From Escherichia phage WG01: a stretch of 64,000 nucleotides of DNA. Of the stretch, positions 45 through 59,302 are shown piece by piece. The position numbers were made by a program, and so were the translations under genes. The stretch is from the sequence record NC_031928.1. One strand, written 5' to 3'. Under the pieces are notes generated by a model. The model was not told the origin of the DNA. It made no database searches and saw only the letters and a list, made by a program, of their open reading frames with translations. Numbering within the stretch: position 1 is the stretch's first letter; each line of letters opens with the position of its first letter.

Positions 45-2255
45 TTAAGCCGCTTCCACGGCTTTCATGAATTTAACAATTTGAGCTACAGAAGCCTCGG
101 TAATGGATGTTCCACGACGATACATGTAGTCCGAAACTAAATGGTAATCAGATTCAAACTGTACAGTCATTTTATCATTGTTGCTTGAAGCATTATCAGT
201 CAACTTAAAAAAAGTATTGTTACAAATTTTCTTGATAACGGAAAGCTTATCATCAGTGATATAACCATGGAAATTCATATAACGGAATATATCATAGAAA
301 TTACTCAGACGAGTATATGCTTCAGTTACCGGCTTATCACTGAAATACTTGGTCATGAAATTAAGCTGAGGGAACTTAGCAATGATTTCAAGGTAATACC
401 GAGCTCGAGTATTGCTACCAAGGTAGTCATCAACATCTACCGCGTCTAAGGCTTCAGCATAGGCTTCTAATGTAGCTTCCATCAAGCATTCGCACTGGCC
501 TAACTTTTTAATCTTTTTGGCAATCTGAGGGCGAATGATATGGAATTCGGTAGCACCAATCAAATTAGCCATACGACACATGGTAGTGGTATTGATGTCA
601 AAGATACCATAAGCTTCATCCATTCCCATGATATCAGAACGGCTACCAAACAGAACATAACCTGTAATTTCTTCTGCTTCGGCAGCGGTTAAGTACAGGG
701 TTTCATTAGCCCAGCGCCCGTCTTTAATGAACCAACGATAAGCACTTGGTGTTTTAGGACGCGGTTCTGATGAACGGACAGTAACCGGAATCCATGGCTT
801 AACAATTTTATTCAGTTCAGAGACTTTATAAAAATGAATTGTGTCACCTTTAAAAAGTTCTTTAACCTTTTCAAGTTGTTGCATTTGCAACATTGAATTT
901 GGGTCGACAAAAATAAGGTCAGTTCCGTATTTAGGAATATTGTTCTCTTTAACAATTTTCTTAGCCGAAGCACTGTTGTCCATTGCCAGAGCCCAAAGAC
1001 CTCGAACTAATGGCACACGACCTTTTTCATCATCATAAACAACATGGATTTCTTTCTTATTAATGCCTAATAAATTACTAAGTCCTGCTACCGAAGAAGT
1101 ATTACCACTTGACTTAATTCGTTTCAAACGTGGGTCTGAAACGACTTCGTAAACCACACCTAAATTAATAAGGTCGTTTTGAAGGGTATAACGCTGGTAT
1201 AATTTCTCATATGTCAATTTTTCTGTAGTAAACAGGCTAGTTCCACCTTTTTTGGTAAGATAGTCACGAGCACTGTAACCAAGGTTAGAAAGGTCACGAT
1301 AAACATGGCGTGGATTATCAGATTCAACCCATTCCTGTGTATCGTTTTTAAAGACCACTGCATCCAGTGCTTCGATACGGGTTGCAATATTTTCCATCGT
1401 ACGTTTATCAAGAGACAACACTTCACGAGACGGAGCAATATCCAGTGAACCCATAGGGAACTTAATATAAACTACATCATGGCGAGTACGCATCCATGTG
1501 CCTTTATTATAGGCAGAATCCAATGGATAAACAATACCACCATAAACTGCATAAAGTCCTGAACGTTCGAAGCTGCCATAATTTGTAGTGGTTACAGGAT
1601 GGTAATCGTCAAATTCAGGGAAATAATCAACTTCAACACCGTCTACATCACCAAGACCAATGAAAGGCCGCATGATATAACGAACTTCAGTTTCAAACTT
1701 ACGGAAATCTTCTTCATCAACAGGAACCGTGATTTCGATACCTGTTTTATCACCTGGCTGCATAGGTTCTACGAAAGTAGGTTTAATCTGCGGGCCATCA
1801 CCATCCATATATGCTACATAACCGCGAACTTCGCCATTGTGCCATGAGGTGATATTAAACGTTTCGGTATAACTGAACGGAGATTTTGAACCAAGGCCAA
1901 AGCCACCGATGAAATCGTTAGAAGCCGTTTTGGATGATGCGAAATAAGAGTTGTACAAACCTGTTTCGTTTTCATCACCACGAATTTGGAAATCACTCAT
2001 ACCCGGACCGAAATCACGACATACAAAGCGAGGGTCTAGTTTACCAGGAACCTGTACTTTCCAACGTTCTTTATTACCATTTAGAATATGGGCATCAATC
2101 ATGTTGGTAATTAGTTCACGAACTACGGCACGTACTTTATTACTATAAAGGTCTGATGACAAAATTTTAAAGACCTTAGGCGATGCCTGAATAGTAAAGC
2201 CTGTGGACTTAGCACCATTACCAATGATTTGTTCTTTTTCGGTTTCAATAATCAT
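45..2255 (-). CDS. rIIA: rIIA protein (GHKL/HATPase-like; protector from prophage-mediated exclusion)
   Basis: 736-aa ORF; N-terminus MIIETEKE...PKVFKILSSDLYSNKVRAVVRELITNMIDAH matches recalled T4 rIIA; ATG start confirmed. Confidence 0.9.
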   Translation of the reverse strand: MIIETEKEQIIGNGAKSTGFTIQASPKVFKILSSDLYSNKVRAVVRELITNMIDAHILNGNKERWKVQVPGKLDPRFVCRDFGPGMSDFQIRGDENETGLYNSYFASSKTASNDFIGGFGLGSKSPFSYTETFNITSWHNGEVRGYVAYMDGDGPQIKPTFVEPMQPGDKTGIEITVPVDEEDFRKFETEVRYIMRPFIGLGDVDGVEVDYFPEFDDYHPVTTTNYGSFERSGLYAVYGGIVYPLDSAYNKGTWMRTRHDVVYIKFPMGSLDIAPSREVLSLDKRTMENIATRIEALDAVVFKNDTQEWVESDNPRHVYRDLSNLGYSARDYLTKKGGTSLFTTEKLTYEKLYQRYTLQNDLINLGVVYEVVSDPRLKRIKSSGNTSSVAGLSNLLGINKKEIHVVYDDEKGRVPLVRGLWALAMDNSASAKKIVKENNIPKYGTDLIFVDPNSMLQMQQLEKVKELFKGDTIHFYKVSELNKIVKPWIPVTVRSSEPRPKTPSAYRWFIKDGRWANETLYLTAAEAEEITGYVLFGSRSDIMGMDEAYGIFDINTTTMCRMANLIGATEFHIIRPQIAKKIKKLGQCECLMEATLEAYAEALDAVDVDDYLGSNTRARYYLEIIAKFPQLNFMTKYFSDKPVTEAYTRLSNFYDIFRYMNFHGYITDDKLSVIKKICNNTFFKLTDNASSNNDKMTVQFESDYHLVSDYMYRRGTSITEASVAQIVKFMKAVEAA

Positions 2256-3059: not shown

Positions 3060-4877
3060 TTACGACATCCAGGCCTTACGGAGTTGTGGGTCATTACCAA
3101 GGAGCATTTCGAACTGTTCTTTCCAATCTTCAGGTAATTGAACCACATCAAATTTAGGGTCTTGAATCATTCGACGGTATTCAGCTTTCTCAAGAGAACC
3201 TAGTCCTTTGATATACCGAATAGAATGTTTTGGTAGAGAGTCCTTAGCTTTGGTATAACTAGGAACATCATAGAACCATTCTTGTTCTTTACCAACCTGG
3301 GCAATAATTACAGGTGTTTTACAGAAACGTACTCGGCCTTGTTCGAACAATTCAGGCCATTGACTAAAGAAGGCTAGCAATGATGGATAAATCGAGCCAG
3401 TACCATCCACATCGGCATCAGTCATAATAGCAATATTACGATAGTTAGTTTTCTCTGCAGGTTCACCAATAACCAATCCAGTGATTGCACAGATATCAAA
3501 TAGTTCTTTGTTCTTCATGATATCTGTTGCTGTCATTCCCCAGGTATTCATAACCTTACCACGTAATGGGTAACCGCCTTGAAGGTCTTTATTACGGACT
3601 TCAATGAAAGGACCCATAGCGGAATCACCTTCGGTTAGGAACAGGGTTGTATCAGCATCTTTGCCGTATAAGTTAGCTTTAATATGCTTATGGACCTTGG
3701 CTTTAGAAGCTTTCTTAGCGGCTTTAGTTTCAGCGGCCTTTTCAGCTGCTAATTTACGTGCTAAAGCAGCTTCAACGATAGGCATAATCAACCCATCGAC
3801 TTTAAGAATAGCTGTGGCAATTTTCTTAGCATCAATTTGGATATGATTACGAATCTCGCCAAAAGGAGATGTTAAGCGCTCTTTAGTCTGGGAATCAAAA
3901 CGCATGTTGCTCATATCACGAATGAACATCACCATCGTAAGGCATTCTTTAACACGAGCTTTAGTTACTTCAATTCCACGGTATTTCTTTTTAATACCTG
4001 GCAGAAGGTGCTCACAGATATCATCGAATACGCATTCAACGTGGTGACCGCCATTCTTGGTGTGGATATTGTTTACATAAGTCAGTTGACGAAATCCATC
4101 CGGAGAAGGAGTGAATGCCATCGAAACATTATCAGTTTCCTGGATTACAAAGTCTTCACCAAATTGCTTAGCATACTTTTTAAAGTTGCCATCTACTTTT
4201 TTACCATTAAAAGTAAATTGAATATCAGGATAAACTACGGCCAGAGTTTGCAATCGGTCTAATGTAATATCCAGATAAATTTGTGACAGGCTATTTTCTT
4301 CGAAATGATTAAAGTCTGGGGTGAATATAACCGAAGTACCCTTACCTTTAGATTTCTTAGTAGACCAACCTTTGTTTTCCATTCCGTTTGAACAGTTAAC
4401 AGTAATCTCATTCTCACCATCAGAGGTGATGCCTGTGAACAAAACAGAGAAGATATTAGTTAAACTACTACCGACACCATTCATGCCGCCTGTCTTACGC
4501 TCAGCGTCATCTCCAAAGTTACCACCTGCCTTTGGAATAGTCCATGCAGCTACAGGACCTGGAATCTGTTCACCATTTTGGTCGGTGACCATTGCTTGTG
4601 GAATACCACGACCATTATCAGAAACTGAAACCTGGTTATTCTTAATTTGAACATCAATTTTATTTGCGAATTTAAAATTGGTACGAATAGCTTCATCGAC
4701 AGAGTTATCAATGATTTCATCAATTAATTTAACCAGTCCAGGAACATAGTTTACCTGTGTAAAATTACCAAACAGGAATCGACCGTGAGCTTCATTAGCA
4801 CTTGAGCCAATATACATCCCACTACGTTTTTTGATATGTTCAATGTCGGACAGTACTTTAATTTCATTCTTAATCAT
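3060..4877 (-). CDS. 39: DNA topoisomerase II large subunit (fused gp39/gp60-type, GyrB-like ATPase)
   Basis: 605-aa ORF with GHKL ATPase N-terminus (LVKLIDEIIDNSVDEA, SDNGRGIP) and TOPRIM-like region; length fits the uninterrupted 39+60 fusion seen in T4 relatives. Confidence 0.9.
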   Translation of the reverse strand: MIKNEIKVLSDIEHIKKRSGMYIGSSANEAHGRFLFGNFTQVNYVPGLVKLIDEIIDNSVDEAIRTNFKFANKIDVQIKNNQVSVSDNGRGIPQAMVTDQNGEQIPGPVAAWTIPKAGGNFGDDAERKTGGMNGVGSSLTNIFSVLFTGITSDGENEITVNCSNGMENKGWSTKKSKGKGTSVIFTPDFNHFEENSLSQIYLDITLDRLQTLAVVYPDIQFTFNGKKVDGNFKKYAKQFGEDFVIQETDNVSMAFTPSPDGFRQLTYVNNIHTKNGGHHVECVFDDICEHLLPGIKKKYRGIEVTKARVKECLTMVMFIRDMSNMRFDSQTKERLTSPFGEIRNHIQIDAKKIATAILKVDGLIMPIVEAALARKLAAEKAAETKAAKKASKAKVHKHIKANLYGKDADTTLFLTEGDSAMGPFIEVRNKDLQGGYPLRGKVMNTWGMTATDIMKNKELFDICAITGLVIGEPAEKTNYRNIAIMTDADVDGTGSIYPSLLAFFSQWPELFEQGRVRFCKTPVIIAQVGKEQEWFYDVPSYTKAKDSLPKHSIRYIKGLGSLEKAEYRRMIQDPKFDVVQLPEDWKEQFEMLLGNDPQLRKAWMS

Positions 4878-4927
4878 GTTATTTCCTCATGTAGTAGGAG
4901 AATATTATCCCATTTCACTTAAAGCAT

Positions 4928-56383: not shown

Positions 56384-56910
56384 CATTGCATTCCTATCAC
56401 AAAGAACAGAGGCAAAGGCTTGTCGCCTTGGCACATAAATTTATTAATCATTACCTGGTAAGCTTCATAGAACTTATCCATCGCTGGAAGGCGCATTGGC
56501 TCTTCGATAATAATCAATAATCGAGTAACAGATAGTCCACGATACTTATGGAAATTGTCTTCATCAAGGAAACTGCGCACAGTATCATAGACAACAAAAC
56601 CAGGACCTTCGACTTGGAGATGTGGGTGTGCCTTAGAAACCTGTTTTATTACATTACAAATTTCTCGCGAGCGATGCGAAGAACTCGACATAACAATCAC
56701 ATCATTACCCTTGGAAACCCAATCAGCGGCGAACTGAGCAAGGGCACTTGTTTTACCTGTTTGGCGTCCGCCATCAAGTCGAAGAGTACCAAACTCTTGC
56801 ATTCTTGAAGCAGGTTCATACCAGGTATATTGGTCTGAGTCTAAACGTTCAATGGCGCGTTCAGCGAAGGCGTGCATTAAGGTTAGATAAATGGGAGTTA
56901 AAAATTTCAT
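56383..56910 (-). CDS. P-loop NTPase-like protein
   Basis: 175 aa from ATG 56910 (AAAGGAAATACT RBS); Walker A-like GGRQTGKTSA. Confidence 0.5.
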   Translation of the reverse strand: MKFLTPIYLTLMHAFAERAIERLDSDQYTWYEPASRMQEFGTLRLDGGRQTGKTSALAQFAADWVSKGNDVIVMSSSSHRSREICNVIKQVSKAHPHLQVEGPGFVVYDTVRSFLDEDNFHKYRGLSVTRLLIIIEEPMRLPAMDKFYEAYQVMINKFMCQGDKPLPLFFVIGMQ

Positions 56911-57059
56911 AGTATTTCCTTTGAGGGCCGTTCCTTGGCACATTAATTCGTCCCTTTCTGCATTTACCCATTACCGCACTTGGGCTCGACCTTATTACAG
57001 GTTGGCGGGAGTCCCTCACAGAATTGTGAGGTCCAGGTTGCTCCCATTTAAAATGCTAA

Positions 57060-57317
57060 TTAACGTTCTTCGTGTTTAAAACCTTTCTTAGTAAACAGCT
57101 TAACAACATCTGCTACTTTACGAAGTTGATCTGCATCAGCAACCAGTTGCTTAACCACTTTCTCGTCAGTTTCTTTAGAGCTAAAAGCGTGCTCAAGTTC
57201 GTCATCATTAGGGTCGGCCATAGAAACTTCAGTGCCGGAAGGTTTAACGTTTACAATCATATTCCAACGTTTAGAAACTAAAGTGGATTCTGTAATAAAT
57301 TCTTGGTAAGTTTTCAT
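57060..57317 (-). CDS. internal protein with capsid-targeting leader (85 aa)
   Basis: N-terminus MKTYQEFITES matches the T4 internal-protein capsid targeting sequence. Confidence 0.6.
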   Translation of the reverse strand: MKTYQEFITESTLVSKRWNMIVNVKPSGTEVSMADPNDDELEHAFSSKETDEKVVKQLVADADQLRKVADVVKLFTKKGFKHEER

Positions 57318-57325
57318 ATTAAGCC

Positions 57326-57685
57326 TTAAAGATGGTCTAGTGCCGGGTTATGAGGTTTTTCTGCTTTAGTAGTGTTTTTATGCCAATCTGATTTAGAAAC
57401 ACGGATGGCATCCGCGCCATAAGAACTCTTAAGGAGACCTTTTTTATTGTACACACTTATTGAAGTAAGAGAATCACCATTCCATGTAGCATGAATGAAG
57501 TTAGATTTAGATTTAAGTTCTTTAGCCAAGCTCTGGTTAGTGGCCATGGAAGCAAAGTCTTTACCTGTAACTTTAAAAACTTCAGATGGGTTCAGCCCTT
57601 CTTTGGCCTTAGCCAATTGTTCAGGAGACATAGCTTCGTTAATGCGCTGAGTAGATTCAGTAATAAATTGTTGGTAAGTTTTCAT
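57326..57685 (-). CDS. internal protein with capsid-targeting leader (119 aa)
   Basis: N-terminus MKTYQQFITES capsid-targeting leader. Confidence 0.6.
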   Translation of the reverse strand: MKTYQQFITESTQRINEAMSPEQLAKAKEGLNPSEVFKVTGKDFASMATNQSLAKELKSKSNFIHATWNGDSLTSISVYNKKGLLKSSYGADAIRVSKSDWHKNTTKAEKPHNPALDHL

Positions 57686-57699
57686 ATTATTCCTTAAGT

Positions 57700-57736
57700 T
57701 GATAGAAGTATTCTATCACGGATTTAATTAAGCGTA
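57700..57736 (-). promoter_or_regulatory. early promoter-like cassette (variant)
   Basis: GTTGATAGAAGTATTCTATCA core upstream of internal protein gene; -35 variant gtaaat. Confidence 0.4.
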
Positions 57737-58144
57737 AATAGCCTTGCCGTAATGTTTGTACCAGGTAGAGCGTTGTGCAATTTTTTCGTCCAAACGGGCC
57801 TGAGATATAGCAATAGAAGCTTCGTGTGGAGTATAGTCACCACGGAATTCCTGAGGAATGTCACTAATGTCCTGGACAGTAGTATCCTTGATATTAAAAC
57901 CACGTTTTAAACATTCGGCTATAAGCTCAATTTGTCGCTTACGTAAAAATTCAAGCTTATCGTAAAAGAATGTAACATGGCCTGTGCCAAGGATAAAAGT
58001 AGGACTGATTTTGAAATCACGGACACGTTTACCATTAGCAACATGCTTACGAACTGCACCGAAAACACGTGGTAATTCACGATATTCAGCCATTAAGTGT
58101 TGGTCAGCCAATTCAGATACTAAGGTAAGGTTGATACGAGTCAT
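57728..58144 (-). CDS. denV: endonuclease V (pyrimidine-dimer DNA glycosylase)
   Basis: 138 aa; essentially identical to recalled T4 DenV ([41 protein letters not shown]...). Confidence 0.95.
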
Positions 58145-58150
58145 TTTTAA

Positions 58151-58200
58151 TCTCCTGTAGTTGATAGGTCTATAGTATCATGACTACAGGAGATGTAAAC
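58151..58200 (-). promoter_or_regulatory. early promoter cassette (denV) with inverted repeat CTCCTGTAG/CTACAGGAG
   Basis: GTTGATAGGTCTATAGTATCA core, gtaaac 58195-58200; repeat arms flank the -10. Confidence 0.6.
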
Positions 58201-58224
58201 AACTTTTATCAAGTATAGGCTTTA

Positions 58225-58821
58225 TTAATTACCACGGGCAGCATTAGCAACGGCGTAAGCGTACTGAATATTAGCGTCTTTAAACGTACCTTTAGAGGTA
58301 TCTATTTCTGCCTTAAAGCCGCCTTTAGCCATAACATCGGCAAATTCTTTACGGAAAGTCATTGCATCAAGACCTTTCCATGCGGATTTATGCTTGGCAA
58401 ATTCAAGACCGGCGAAGTTGACCGCCTTAGCCAATTTATTATCAATAGTCCATTTACCTGCTTTAGGTACAAATACAGGACCTTTCTGTTTAGAGAACAG
58501 TTTTAAATTCCAGCGACGAAGGTCGCCGTCAGCTTTAACAAAAGCTGCGTCCAAGTTACTAGCAACAACATCTTGGATATGGGCAAATTTAAGTCCATCA
58601 GCTTCAATATTTAGGTCGTTACGCCAGCGAAGTCCTTCCCAGGCGAAAGCTTTAAAATCAGAAGCTTTTGTAGCCAAGTACCGTTCAATAGGAGCTGTTT
58701 TAGCGTCAAAACCGTTTCCTGGGTTGTCAACGCCGTTTCCTTTGTAAGTCCACTCATCTTTATTAATGCCTTGGACCTTTCCTACAGAAGCTTCGGCGAT
58801 AAATTCTTTATACGTTTTCAT
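58225..58821 (-). CDS. internal protein with capsid-targeting leader (198 aa; IPIII-sized)
   Basis: N-terminus MKTYKEFIAEA capsid-targeting leader; basic Ala/Lys-rich body; early and late promoter motifs upstream. Confidence 0.65.
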   Translation of the reverse strand: MKTYKEFIAEASVGKVQGINKDEWTYKGNGVDNPGNGFDAKTAPIERYLATKASDFKAFAWEGLRWRNDLNIEADGLKFAHIQDVVASNLDAAFVKADGDLRRWNLKLFSKQKGPVFVPKAGKWTIDNKLAKAVNFAGLEFAKHKSAWKGLDAMTFRKEFADVMAKGGFKAEIDTSKGTFKDANIQYAYAVANAARGN

Positions 58822-58866
58822 ACGGGTTCCTTAAAGGAAAATATTTTAATTGGTCTGTTCAAGTAA

Positions 58867-58903
58867 CTGTAGATATACTATCACAATTCTAGGAGATGTA
58901 AAC
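58867..58903 (-). promoter_or_regulatory. early promoter cassette (internal protein gene)
   Basis: ATATACTATCA core, gtaaac 58898-58903. Confidence 0.5.
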
Positions 58904-59302
58904 TTATTTATAGGTCTTCATCCAATTCTTGAACAAAGCCGCGACGTCTTTCTCTTTAACGTTCAGTTTAATGTCCAACATTTTACCACCCGCTGCTCTG
59001 GTTTGGCGAATCTTAGCAGTACCGGTTTCGCCATTCCACTCAACATAATACTGTCCAGTGTTCATTGCAATACCATCACCGTAGTCTTCATTTTTAGAAG
59101 TGGTGAATGCTAGCTTCATAGTCTTAGATACACGAGCCTGCATGCCTGTCTGAAGGGCATTACGAACGCGAATAACCTGAGGAGTGGCCTGGGTCAAGTT
59201 CTCATTCAGTTCTTCAGTGAACTCTTCAGATTCAAACATCGCCAAAAGTTCTTTAGATGCAGGAATTACATTCTCTGCGATAAATTCATTATAAGTTTTC
59301 AT
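58904..59302 (-). CDS. internal protein with capsid-targeting leader (132 aa)
   Basis: N-terminus [11 protein letters not shown] capsid-targeting leader. Confidence 0.6.
58906..58913 (-). promoter_or_regulatory. late promoter TATAAATA (internal protein gene)
   Basis: Minus-strand TATAAATA immediately upstream of early -35 for 58225..58821. Confidence 0.5.

What the first reader, a model, noticed from the sequence alone, without database searches (positions are those of the whole stretch)
56911..57059. GC-richer ~150-bp non-coding interval with nested hairpin between a P-loop gene and the internal-protein genes
No ORF on either strand in an otherwise gene-dense region. It contains a nested palindrome GGGAG TCC CTCACA GAAT TGTGAGG TCC AGGTTG CTCCC with no following U-run, so it is not a classic terminator and lacks the early-promoter cassette. 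It could be a structured RNA, a processing site or a protein-binding element.
Basis: seen in the sequence. Interest (0 to 1): 0.45.

Follow-up and report, generated by a model that had tools for sequence, protein, structure and literature searches.

The report
Widespread unannotated structured phage RNA
The hairpin is real, and it is the variable front end of a small structured RNA whose 44-base core is almost identical in over a thousand phage genomes from unrelated families, including T4 itself, yet is in no RNA family database and has no known function.

Summary
The window is a Dhakavirus, 100% identical to Shigella phage PSD9. The interval 56911-57059 lies between an internal-protein gene and vs.8, and all genes here are on the minus strand.

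The nested hairpin is real and keeps its pairing through compensatory changes, but its sequence is variable. The conserved part lies next to it at 56965-57008 on the minus strand. It is a 44-nt three-way junction, N-ACCU-GUAAUA-AGGU-CGA-(short hairpin)-GGUAA-N'.

The closing pair occurs as A-U, U-A, C-G, G-C and U.G in 38 distinct sequences, and none is unpaired. A covariance model finds one copy in the window (69.5 bits, next best 11.8).

The core is in about 1,088 phage records: T4-like phages, rV5-like phages, Vibrio and Pseudomonas phages and a Kagunavirus. It is in none of 5,426 E. coli genomes. Outside T4-likes it lies in or beside tRNA gene clusters on the tRNA strand. In some phages it sits between two promoters with no ORF.

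Rfam 15, ARAGORN and the literature searches found nothing. No reading frame is conserved, and T4's long vs.8 annotation runs through the element by accident.

Best reading: a new family of phage structured small RNA. Its function is unknown. My guess is that it acts in trans by binding a conserved host factor.

The parts
57007..57045 (-). Outer stem GGGAG/CUCCC, a 9-nt 5' internal loop CAACCUGGA, inner stem CCUCACA/UGUGAGG and loop AUUC. This is the variable 5' module.
   Evidence: Folds at -15.6 kcal/mol, z = -2.1. Among 12 type-A relatives there are compensatory changes at three pairs (A-U/G-C; C-G/U-A; U-A/C-G/U.G) and 97-100% of cells are paired. A hairpin of unrelated sequence ends 0-5 nt before the core in 16 of 18 lineage representatives folded. 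The two exceptions are JS98-like type B, where the hairpin ends 7 nt before, and Kagunavirus, where RNAfold chose another pairing.
56965..57008 (-). Conserved 44-nt core, a three-way junction that closes P3 and P4. This is the family-defining part.
   Evidence: The covariance model R1 scores 69.5 bits, E 1.6e-21. It is the only hit in 64 kb, and the next best scores 11.8 bits. Covariation score 0.205 against 0.056 for shuffles, 0 of 500 reaching it.
57003..57005 (-). P2 5' strand (CCA). It pairs with 56968-56970 (UGG).
   Evidence: The closing pair (alignment columns 6-39) is A-U in 23 sequences, U-A in 6, C-G in 4, U.G in 4 and G-C in 1, with 0 of 38 unpaired. The next pair is C-G in 32 and U.G in 2.
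56989..57002 (-). P3 hairpin ACCU-GUAAUA-AGGU. The stem sequence is invariant, and the hexaloop is GUAAYA.
   Evidence: 100% paired. The loop-closing pair is U-A in 37 sequences and A-U in 1 (a Vibrio phage, L038). A scan that left the 3' strand free found no further convincing members.
56986..56988 (-). Junction J3/4, CGA. It is invariant in the alignment, and one Kagunavirus has CGG.
56976..56985 (-). P4, a short hairpin G-C...G-C with a variable 3-6 nt loop.
   Evidence: Pair 25-32 is C-G in 32 sequences, U-A in 3 and G-C in 2, with 1 unpaired. The 7-nt versions form GCG-CAA-CGC and GUC-CGU-GAC.
56971..56975 (-). Junction J4/2, GGUAA, invariant.
   Evidence: This stretch was fixed in the search pattern, so its invariance is partly imposed. 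It is also kept in the BLAST-derived hits.
56968..56970 (-). P2 3' strand (UGG).
56940..56967 (-). 3' extension specific to T4-like phages. It contains the conserved RRGGAY motif (AAGGGAC here). No supported pairing was found.
   Evidence: Conserved in type A and type B relatives. No structure is supported by covariation.
56927..56939 (-). 3' hairpin GCC-AAGGAAC-GGC with GGA in the loop. It is the last conserved part before the vs.8 ribosome-binding site.
   Evidence: Three invariant G-C pairs. In L020 the same hairpin occurs twice, after the core and again upstream of vs.8, with an internal-protein gene between. It may therefore be a separate module.
56908..56921 (-). vs.8 ribosome-binding site (AAGGAAA, 56921-56915) and true start codon (56910-56908). 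This is the boundary of the element, not part of it.
   Evidence: The MKFLTPIYLTLMHAF start is conserved across relatives, and the sequence upstream of it is not in a conserved frame.

Best explanation
The interval encodes, on the minus strand, one member of a previously uncatalogued family of phage structured RNAs.

Anatomy:
- In the junction, a 2-3 bp closing helix (P2) encloses an invariant hairpin ACCU-GUAAYA-AGGU (P3), the junction CGA, a short variable hairpin (P4) and the junction GGUAA.
- T4-like phages add a 3' extension of about 55 nt that ends in a GGA-loop hairpin.

Proposed mechanism:
- In this phage the element is transcribed as part of the polycistronic message that runs from the internal-protein genes into vs.8 (inferred).
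- The folded module acts as an RNA in its own right, not as a regulator of vs.8 (inferred).
- Its nearly invariant junction and loop nucleotides form a binding surface for a factor conserved across gamma-proteobacterial hosts (inferred).
- The link to tRNA clusters points to a component of the tRNA or translation machinery, or to a tRNA-directed defence nuclease that it decoys (speculation).

Shown: conservation, the secondary structure, the strand, the lack of coding, the association with tRNA clusters, a promoter-like site 5' of the element with no convincing ORF in some phages (two flanking near-consensus promoters in L030), and its occupying a variable noncoding slot as a roughly 90-nt unit.

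My probabilities: about 0.85 that it is a functional structured RNA of a new family, and about 0.4 that it acts in trans through a host factor.
For: Structure and strand:
- In 38 distinct cores the closing pair takes all four Watson-Crick forms plus U.G and is never unpaired. P4 and the P3 loop-closing pair show compensatory changes. Covariation is 0.205 against 0.056 for shuffles (0 of 500), and slid controls collapse to 20-48% paired.
- The rival helix predicted by minimum free energy is only 70% paired.
- P1 keeps pairing through three compensatory changes. A hairpin of unrelated sequence takes the same position in 16 of 18 lineage representatives folded.
- U.G pairs would be C.A mismatches on the other strand.
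- The element is co-oriented with tRNA genes in all 15 loci that have them, which represent about 7 lineages.

Distribution:
- About 970-1,090 phage records carry it, including T4, RB32, Mosigvirus, and Klebsiella, Citrobacter and Enterobacter T4-likes, rV5-like phages, Vibrio phages of 60 and 133 kb, Pseudomonas phage PsgM04F and a Kagunavirus.
- It is in 0 of 5,426 E. coli genomes.

It is not tied to vs.8:
- In L020 and relatives it precedes an internal-protein gene.
- In rV5-like phages and the Kagunavirus it is followed by a near-consensus promoter.

It can stand alone:
- In L030 it lies between TTGACA-17-TATACT and TTGACA-17-TAAACT.
- In L056 a promoter-like site (TATAAT second hexamer, 10 of 12) lies about 50 nt upstream, between a divergent and a convergent gene. 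The only overlapping ORF is an unconserved 44-aa one.
- In L075 it fills a slot between two tRNAs.

It fills a variable slot:
- In Kagunavirus EcoPhCCP1 a roughly 90-nt unit fills the slot between endolysin and the next promoter. 441 of 445 matching records do not cover it, and the one relative read (fEg-Eco06) holds a different noncoding stretch with a terminator there.
- No protein gene accompanies it in that slot, which argues that it works with host factors.

It is not coding: every frame is broken or shifts relative to the downstream gene among close relatives.

It is not catalogued: no Rfam 15 hit even at E up to 10 in the window, or up to 1 at ten other loci. ARAGORN finds nothing, and an exact-sequence search of the paper library returns 0 papers.

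Background: a 2010 review states that no trans-acting regulatory RNA or riboswitch had been characterised in T4 (PMC3014915).
Against: - There are no expression or end-mapping data, so transcription as a discrete RNA in T4-like phages is inferred.
- Here and in T4 there is no promoter or terminator at the element.
- From my own recollection of the 1970s work on labelled low-molecular-weight T4 RNA, only the tRNAs and species 1 and 2 were reported, all from the tRNA region. An abundant stable RNA from this locus would probably have been seen.
- No partner has been identified, and the host-factor and decoy ideas rest only on context.
- Part of the invariance is imposed by how I collected sequences, because the fixed pattern contained ACC, GTAA, GGTCGAG and CGGTAA. 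The covariation tests use only positions left free. BLAST-derived members require high identity.
- The near identity between T4-like and rV5-like cores (46 of 49 nt) could partly reflect recent transfer and not constraint.
- P2 is short, and its third pair is unpaired in 12 of 37 sequences.
- Folding energy of the core is no better than shuffles (z = +0.18).
Confidence: 0.45

Rival explanations
1. A cis-acting RNA element of the polycistronic transcript. It would be a processing, stability or 3'-end module that marks a boundary between transcription or translation units. Examples are a recognition structure for a host RNase, a barrier to exonucleases, or an unconventional termination or insulation signal. 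It would act only on the RNA that carries it.
For: - In T4-like phages it is embedded between cistrons with no promoter or terminator of its own.
- In several other phages it lies at the end of a unit just before a promoter: rV5-like, type D and Kagunavirus.
- In the Kagunavirus it occupies the slot where a relative has an intrinsic terminator.
- In tRNA arrays it lies where processing occurs.
Against: - In L030 it lies between two near-consensus promoters, and in L056 a promoter-like site lies just upstream and only an unconserved 44-aa ORF overlaps it. In these cases there is no cargo to process or protect.
- About twenty invariant unpaired or loop nucleotides across distant phages is more than a simple RNase site or exonuclease block needs.
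- The flanking genes differ completely between lineages.
Confidence: 0.28
2. A new self-cleaving ribozyme, a small three-way junction with a conserved core. It would cut polycistronic or tRNA-cluster transcripts, as HDV-like and hammerhead ribozymes do near phage tRNAs.
For: - The core is a compact three-way junction with invariant junction nucleotides.
- It lies between tRNAs or between cistrons.
- From my own recollection, HDV-like 'theta' ribozymes have been described next to tRNAs in gut phages.
Against: - There is no match to any Rfam ribozyme model even at E up to 10.
- The junction strand lengths (0, 3 and 5 nt) and sequences do not fit the hammerhead core (1, 7 and 3 nt, with CUGANGA and GAA).
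- tRNA arrays are already processed by RNase P and RNase Z.
- Nothing here bears on catalysis.
Confidence: 0.07
3. A DNA-level element. It would be a conserved recombination junction or cassette boundary of the hypervariable internal-protein locus (in the spirit of the PeSL cassettes of T4-type phages), or a protein-binding site on DNA.
For: - It sits exactly at the edge of the hyperplastic internal-protein and denV region.
- Two alternative 5' modules (types A and B) are joined to the same core.
- In L020 an internal-protein gene is inserted between two copies of the 3' hairpin.
- A roughly 90-nt unit sits in a variable noncoding slot of a Kagunavirus.
Against: - Compensatory base changes and G.U pairs are signatures of selection on RNA pairing, and on one strand only.
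- There is no sigma-70 promoter, which PeSLs require.
- The same core sits in tRNA clusters of unrelated phages that have no internal-protein locus.
- The strand is always that of the tRNAs.
Confidence: 0.07
4. A riboswitch or translational operator in the leader of vs.8, which would sense a ligand or protein to control the P-loop gene.
For: - In most T4-like phages it lies directly upstream of vs.8.
- It is a small junction with conserved unpaired nucleotides, like an aptamer.
- A GGA-loop hairpin lies near the ribosome-binding site.
Against: - The downstream gene is not constant. It is an internal-protein gene in L020, L011, L013 and L051, a promoter in rV5-like, type D and Kagunavirus phages, tRNAs in L075 and a convergent gene in L056.
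- No alternative pairing with the ribosome-binding site is conserved.
- The frame and distance to the start codon vary.
Confidence: 0.05
5. Protein-coding sequence: a small peptide (the 27-codon ORF 57047-56964) or an N-terminal extension of vs.8, as annotated in T4 (219 aa) and PSD9 (186 aa).
For: - T4 and PSD9 annotations run into the interval.
- One frame (PVIRSSPSAV...) is open across the core in every sequence.
Against: - The 27-codon ORF has an in-frame TGA in 10 of the 13 type A sequences, T4 and RB32 included, and two more lack its ATG.
- The frame that is open across the core is closed by stops upstream in all type B sequences.
- That frame is in phase with vs.8 only in T4, L027 and L034, and in the latter two a stop intervenes.
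- In the window it is out of phase with vs.8.
- The conserved vs.8 N-terminus begins at MKF or MRTF.
- Substitutions follow base pairing, not codon positions.
Confidence: 0.02

Closest known systems
T4 species 1 and species 2 RNAs (rnaC, rnaD)
   Same: They are small phage-encoded non-tRNA RNAs on the same strand as the tRNA genes, they lie inside a tRNA cluster, and their function is unknown. In L075, L037 and L038 the element occupies the same kind of slot.
   Different: There is no sequence or structural relation. The core model finds nothing in T4 rnaC or rnaD. In T4 the element lies about 6 kb away, between denV and vs.8. rnaC ends in a tRNA-like T-arm and CCA, and the element has neither.
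Large ornate phage-associated RNAs (GOLLD, ROOL)
   Same: From my own recollection, these are orphan structured RNAs often carried by phages and prophages and often next to tRNA genes.
   Different: They are 500-800 nt and are in Rfam, and there is no match. This core is 44 nt and the whole element is about 90-135 nt.
PeSL cassettes (promoter-early stem-loop) of T4-type phages
   Same: They are conserved non-coding modules at the boundaries of hypervariable regions and are associated with cassette shuffling (PMC2839356 and PMC4122927, titles and abstracts). This element also marks the edge of the internal-protein locus.
   Different: A PeSL is an early promoter plus a terminator-like stem-loop. 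There is no promoter-like site here, covariation indicates RNA structure, and the element occurs outside T4-like phages.
Intrinsic (Rho-independent) terminator
   Same: A GC-rich hairpin after a stop codon.
   Different: There is no U-run, and the hairpin is followed by a conserved junction and not by a 3' end signal.
Three-way-junction ribozymes and aptamers (hammerhead, purine riboswitch)
   Same: A closing helix, two hairpins and conserved junction nucleotides.
   Different: The junction lengths and sequences differ, there are no Rfam hits, there is no constant downstream gene and there is no expression platform.
Candidate structured RNAs catalogued from IMG/VR (Fremin et al. 2023, PMC10690425)
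   Same: That survey lists 8,495 unnamed candidates from viral contigs, found by covariation, including tRNA-like ones. This motif could be among them.
   Different: I could not check this, because the supplementary files are not held. The paper's text does not describe this motif, the T4 locus or the association with tRNA clusters.

Membership tests
Any curated Rfam 15 family | Covariance-model score at or above the family's gathering threshold | tested here: not met
   There are 0 matches in the window at gathering threshold. At E up to 10 over 56700-57300 the only match is a chance snoRNA hit outside the element. No family matches at the element in 10 other loci at E up to 1.
tRNA / tmRNA | Cloverleaf with anticodon arm, T-arm and acceptor stem | tested here: not met
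   ARAGORN finds 0 genes in the whole window. The Rfam tRNA model matches the neighbouring tRNAs in other loci but never the element.
Intrinsic terminator | GC-rich stem-loop followed directly by a run of U | tested here: not met
   There is no terminator-like site at 56911-57059 on either strand, and P1 is followed by GCCAACCUG.
PeSL cassette | Sigma-70 early promoter adjoining the stem-loop | tested here: not met
   There are no promoter-like hexamers in or next to the interval. The nearest is at 57738-57710.
Riboswitch or cis-regulatory leader | Constant position upstream of a functionally coherent set of genes | tested here: not met
   What lies downstream varies: vs.8, an internal-protein gene, a promoter, tRNAs or a convergent gene.
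Riboswitch or cis-regulatory leader | Expression platform (alternative pairing with a terminator or the ribosome-binding site) | tested here: inconclusive
   No conserved alternative pairing was seen by eye or by RNAalifold. The search was not exhaustive.
Hammerhead ribozyme | Three-way junction with the core strands CUGANGA and GAA and a cleavage-site H | tested here: not met
   The junction strands are 0 nt, CGA and GGUAA. There is no Rfam hammerhead hit.
T4 rnaC / rnaD | Homology to the T4 species 1 or 2 RNA sequences | tested here: not met
   Model R1 searched over the T4 12-kb locus L040, which contains rnaC and rnaD, gives one hit only, at the denV-vs.8 interval.
Protein-coding gene | An open frame conserved among relatives, in phase with a start codon | tested here: not met
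   A three-frame comparison of about 40 relatives shows stops or phase changes in every frame.
New family proposed here (P1 plus three-way-junction core) | Closing pair and P4 pair maintained by compensatory change around invariant P3, CGA and GGUAA | tested here: met
   Window hit of 69.5 bits, and pair statistics.
New family proposed here (P1 plus three-way-junction core) | Transcribed as RNA, with defined ends | not testable with these tools
   No transcriptome data are available. Promoter-like sites flank it in L030 and precede it in L056.
UAA/GAN-type or loop-E-type junction motif | Characteristic non-canonical pairs between a UAA strand and a GAN strand | not testable with these tools
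   The strands GG-UAA and C-GAG are present. The resemblance is recalled from memory and needs a 3D structure or chemical probing.

The most novel reading that the evidence does not exclude
A new class of small phage RNA, carried as a self-contained unit of about 90 nt that turns up in unrelated virulent phages of gamma-proteobacteria. It would work in trans on the host's tRNA or translation apparatus, or as an RNA decoy against a tRNA-directed defence nuclease. That would make it an RNA counterpart of the phage tRNA genes it travels with, and the first trans-acting RNA with a function in T4.
Probability: 0.3. Interest if true: 0.85.

Novelty: categorically new. Interest (0 to 1): 0.72.

Why it matters
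T4 is among the most intensively studied phages. A 2010 review still noted that no riboswitch or trans-acting regulatory RNA had been characterised in it, and that its two known small RNAs had no known role (PMC3014915).

This element has about twenty invariant nucleotides and clear covariation, and T4's own annotation hides it inside a mis-extended gene. It is shared with rV5-like, Vibrio, Pseudomonas and Kagunavirus phages. Outside the T4-like phages it travels with tRNA genes, which are now widely seen as counter-defence cargo.

If it binds a host factor or blocks a defence system, it would open RNA-based host manipulation in the classic lytic phages to direct test. The test is easy, because T4 genetics, a 44-nt target and obvious point mutants are all at hand.

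At the least, about a thousand phage genome annotations have a missing RNA feature and a wrong vs.8 start.

'Categorically new' here means that no known family or described element fits. It does not mean that a new mechanism has been shown.

Tried and rejected
- **Known RNA families.** Rfam at gathering threshold and at permissive E-values, on the window and on ten other loci, found nothing at the element. ARAGORN found nothing.
- **Thermodynamic signal.** The whole interval and the core fold no better than shuffles. Only P1 stands out.
- **The helix predicted by minimum free energy** (GCCCA with UGGGU). Rejected, because only 70% of cells pair.
- **Coding.** Rejected.
- **Homology to T4 rnaD** (shared GGUCG...CGGUAA). 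The model does not hit it, so I treat the similarity as chance.
- **Mimicry of a host sequence or a copy in the host.** No match in 5,426 E. coli genomes. The one plasmid hit is a 137-kb record that I take to be a phage of the rV5 type.
- **Anticodon-loop mimicry.** CUGUAA equals positions 32-37 of tRNA-Tyr, and UGU is the TGT identity element. Weakened, because the U before GUA covaries as a base pair (U-A to A-U in L038).
- **Identity of GUAACAAGGU to 16S rRNA 1497-1506** (recalled from memory). A 10-mer match is within chance, and the enteric version differs.
- **Pseudoknot between the P1 internal loop and the 3' tail.** There is 4-6 bp of complementarity in the Kagunavirus, rV5 and type D versions. 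It is absent or uncompensated in types A and B (RB32 changes the loop without compensation), so it is not claimed.
- **A closing helix between the 5' flank and GUAAAUNC.** The complementarity is AU-rich and its position is inconsistent, so it is not claimed.
- **CsrA-type control** (a GGA hairpin plus GGA in the ribosome-binding site). The second GGA is not conserved.
- **Relaxing the P3 stem in a collection scan.** This gave only weak, unconvincing hits of 12-19 bits.
- **Neighbouring proteins.** Pfam found no family for vs.8, the vs.7-like protein or the two internal proteins.
- **Literature.** Eight searches found no description. The closest is a bulk catalogue whose supplements I could not read.
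- **'Campylobacter' hits in BLAST.** The one examined (A12a) is a 135-kb record matching like the rV5-type E. coli phage BP9. I take them to be mislabelled or of that type, not Campylobacter T4-likes. This was not verified.
Full report
**Where we are.** The window is a T4-like phage of the genus Dhakavirus. The 1.1 kb around the finding is 100% identical to Shigella phage PSD9 (taxonomy). All genes here are on the minus strand, in the order nudE, e (lysozyme), internal-protein genes, denV, two more internal-protein genes, the interval, then vs.8 (a P-loop protein) and the rest of the vs cluster. The interval 56911-57059 is bounded by the stop of the 85-aa internal-protein gene (57060) and by the conserved start of vs.8 (ATG 56910-56908, MKFLTPIY).

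**The observation.** The nested palindrome is at 57007-57045 as described and folds at -15.6 kcal/mol (z = -2.1). No promoter-like or terminator-like site adjoins it. The 'GC-richer' claim holds only modestly: GC is 0.47 against 0.37-0.43 in the internal-protein genes, and vs.8 reaches the same value.

'No ORF' is not literally true, because several mechanical ORFs and two database annotations overlap the interval. A frame-by-frame comparison of about 40 relatives shows that none is conserved:
- The 27-codon ORF carries an in-frame TGA in most type A relatives, including T4 and RB32.
- The frame that stays open across the core changes phase relative to vs.8 among close relatives.
- T4's 219-aa vs.8 reads through only because of a small local duplication.

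As a whole the interval folds no better than shuffled sequence. The evidence for function is comparative, not thermodynamic.

**What is conserved.** BLAST of the interval finds about 970 phage records. In T4-like phages of Escherichia, Shigella, Klebsiella, Citrobacter, Enterobacter and Yersinia it lies at the same place, at the downstream edge of the hypervariable internal-protein and denV region.

A stretch of 40-49 nt is also nearly identical in rV5-like phages (Vequintavirus), in a Pseudomonas phage and, as found from a metagenomic variant, in Vibrio phages of 60 and 133 kb. Pattern scans of viral, metagenomic and genome collections added further lineages.

It is one of at least two alternative 5' modules in T4-like phages (types A and B), and its sequence differs again in every other lineage. 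The constant part is the 44 nt next to it, at 56965-57008 on the minus strand.

**The structure.** In 38 distinct cores (alignment A1) the fold is a three-way junction:
- A short closing helix, P2.
- Directly after it, the hairpin ACCU-GUAAYA-AGGU (P3).
- The junction CGA.
- A 2-3 bp hairpin with a variable loop (P4).
- The junction GGUAA.
- The return strand of P2.

The base immediately before ACC and the base immediately after GGUAA were free in every search pattern. They form A-U (23 sequences), U-A (6), C-G (4), U.G (4) and G-C (1), and none is unpaired. The second pair of P4 is C-G (32), U-A (3) or G-C (2). The loop-closing pair of P3 switches from U-A to A-U in one Vibrio phage.

The covariation score is 0.205 against 0.056 for shuffles (0 of 500 reach it). 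Sliding the partners by one to three columns drops pairing from 95% to 20-48%. The alternative helix favoured by energy minimisation is only 70% paired.

A covariance model of the core finds one copy in the window (69.5 bits, E 1.6e-21, next best 11.8 bits). It finds one copy in the T4 locus, between denV and the true start of vs.8.

**Caveat on bias.** The invariance of ACC, GTAA, GGTCGAG and CGGTAA is partly imposed by my search patterns. A scan that freed the P3 3' strand produced no convincing additional members. BLAST-derived members show one change, CGAG to CGGG, in a Kagunavirus.

**Strand and nature.** Three lines of evidence place the functional molecule as RNA of the minus strand:
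- G.U pairs would be C.A mismatches on the other strand.
- The pattern of substitution is compensatory.
- The element is on the tRNA strand in all 15 loci that contain tRNA genes.

**Context outside T4-like phages.**
- In Pseudomonas phage PsgM04F the element lies inside an 11-tRNA cluster.
- In a 60-kb Vibrio phage it lies about 110 nt after tRNA-Gly.
- In L075 it fills a slot of about 110 nt between a tRNA and a degenerate tRNA-like sequence.
- In L025 it lies in a 1-kb ORF-poor stretch between tRNA-Asn and tRNA-Tyr.
- In rV5-like phages and in a related group of about 140-kb phages ('type D') it lies 550-600 nt upstream of the tRNA cluster.
- In type D it sits between two near-consensus promoters, TTGACA-17-TATACT and TTGACA-17-TAAACT, about 200 bp apart.
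- In L056 a promoter-like site lies about 50 nt upstream, between a divergent and a convergent gene. The only overlapping ORF is an unconserved 44-aa one.
- In Kagunavirus EcoPhCCP1 a unit of about 90 nt (P1, core and a short tail) fills the gap between endolysin and the next promoter. 441 of 445 matching records do not cover that part, and the one relative read (fEg-Eco06) holds a different non-coding stretch with an ordinary terminator there.

**What the context implies.**
- The element is not a leader of vs.8. In L020 and several relatives it precedes an internal-protein gene instead.
- It can be a gene of its own.
- It occurs in a variable slot with no accompanying protein gene, so it probably does not need a dedicated phage partner.
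- It is absent from 5,426 complete E. coli genomes, so it is not a host or prophage sequence.

**What it is not.** It matches no Rfam 15 family, in the window or at ten other loci, and it is not a tRNA or tmRNA. It is not an intrinsic terminator or a PeSL cassette. Its junction strands do not fit a hammerhead. The model finds nothing in T4 rnaC or rnaD.

A search of the paper library for the exact sequence returned nothing, and topical searches found no description. A 2010 review states that no riboswitch or trans-acting regulatory RNA had been characterised in T4. A 2023 survey lists 8,495 unnamed candidate structured RNAs from viral contigs.

**How it most likely works.** I put about 0.85 on this being a functional structured RNA of a new family. 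Its action is inferred.

I favour a trans-acting RNA (about 0.4), released from longer transcripts by the host's tRNA and mRNA processing enzymes or made from its own promoter. Its invariant loop and junctions would bind a factor conserved among gamma-proteobacterial hosts. The arguments are the number of invariant unpaired nucleotides, the stand-alone cases, the occurrence without a protein partner, and the company of tRNA genes. That company suggests the tRNA or translation machinery, or a tRNA-directed defence, as the target.

The main rival (about 0.28) is a cis-acting boundary module for processing, stability or 3'-end formation. It fits the embedded position in T4-like phages and the frequent position just before a promoter, and it fits the Kagunavirus slot where a relative has a terminator.

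A new self-cleaving ribozyme (0.07) and a DNA-level recombination junction (0.07) are not excluded. A vs.8 riboswitch (0.05) and coding (0.02) are largely excluded.

The main argument against the favoured reading is that there are no expression data. From my own recollection, the classic T4 low-molecular-weight RNA gels showed nothing from this locus.

**Verdict.** The interpretation 'structured RNA' is right and understated. The element is an uncatalogued RNA family that is highly conserved and widely distributed, with members in T4 and in this phage. The next experiments are cheap. Interest 0.72.

Noticed in passing
window 56908-56943; L040 (T4 NC_000866) 4254-4913: The annotated starts of vs.8 lie inside the RNA element, in T4 (219 aa) and in PSD9 (ATG at window 56943). 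The conserved N-terminus begins at MKF or MRTF, which is window ATG 56910-56908. Many T4-like records probably inherit the wrong start.
   Followed up: yes
L028 ~45-75 and ~185-215; L003 ~1570-1600 (minus strand): A second repeated motif, CCC(U/A)UAGAGGGCUUGA(U/A)AGUGC (a small hairpin plus a tail), flanks the element on both sides in the type D phages of about 140 kb. It occurs once, upstream, in rV5-like phages. Its role is unknown.
   Followed up: no
L020 10295-10312 and 9891-9908 (minus strand): The GGA-loop hairpin G(U/C)GCCAAGGAAUGGCCCC occurs twice, after the core and again just upstream of vs.8, with a 100-aa internal-protein gene between the copies. This looks like a cassette inserted between repeats, so the hairpin may be a separate module or a recombination joint.
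   Followed up: partly
L078 2846-2960 (Kagunavirus EcoPhCCP1), conserved in about 445 Kagunavirus and Jerseyvirus records: A promoter with a consensus -35, TTGACA-17-ATACTT, is followed about 70 nt later by a strong terminator. The tiny C-rich transcript contains CACCUCCU, which resembles the 16S anti-Shine-Dalgarno sequence. It is a candidate small RNA.
   Followed up: no
L028 3115-3418: A group I intron (Rfam RF00028, 81 bits) lies in the phage contig of about 140 kb, 3 kb from the element.
   Followed up: no
L025 3342-4337 (minus strand): About 1 kb between tRNA-Asn and tRNA-Tyr has no annotated tRNA and contains the element. It may hold further non-coding RNAs.
   Followed up: no
L075 3407-3475 (minus strand): A degenerate tRNA-like sequence (26.7 bits, just under the Rfam threshold; ARAGORN is silent) lies directly after the element. 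A tRNA with a 4-base anticodon call (ctgg) lies directly before it.
   Followed up: no
L085 2238-2277, L095 2654-2693, L099 1633-1671: Weak model hits (19 bits) share UCGAGCAAUGGUGCGGUAAUG with the core. They have a different hairpin (CGACC-GUUACU-GGUCG) and a 10-nt insert in place of P3, and they lie in an intergenic region. They may be a distant variant or chance.
   Followed up: partly
L043 8395-8425 and L056 3440-3470: In the two metagenomic phages with the longest versions, a second UCGA(G/A)...GGUAA stretch about 60 nt after the core is conserved between them (CUCUAGCUUCGAGAUGUGGUAAGUUACGGCAG and UUCUAGCCUCGAAAUGUAGCAGGUAACGGCGG). It may be a repeat of the junction module.
   Followed up: no
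window 57060-59302: Four genes around denV start with MKTY(Q/K/N)EFI(T/A)E, the internal-protein leader. This marks a locus of shuffled internal-protein cassettes whose downstream edge is the element.
   Followed up: no
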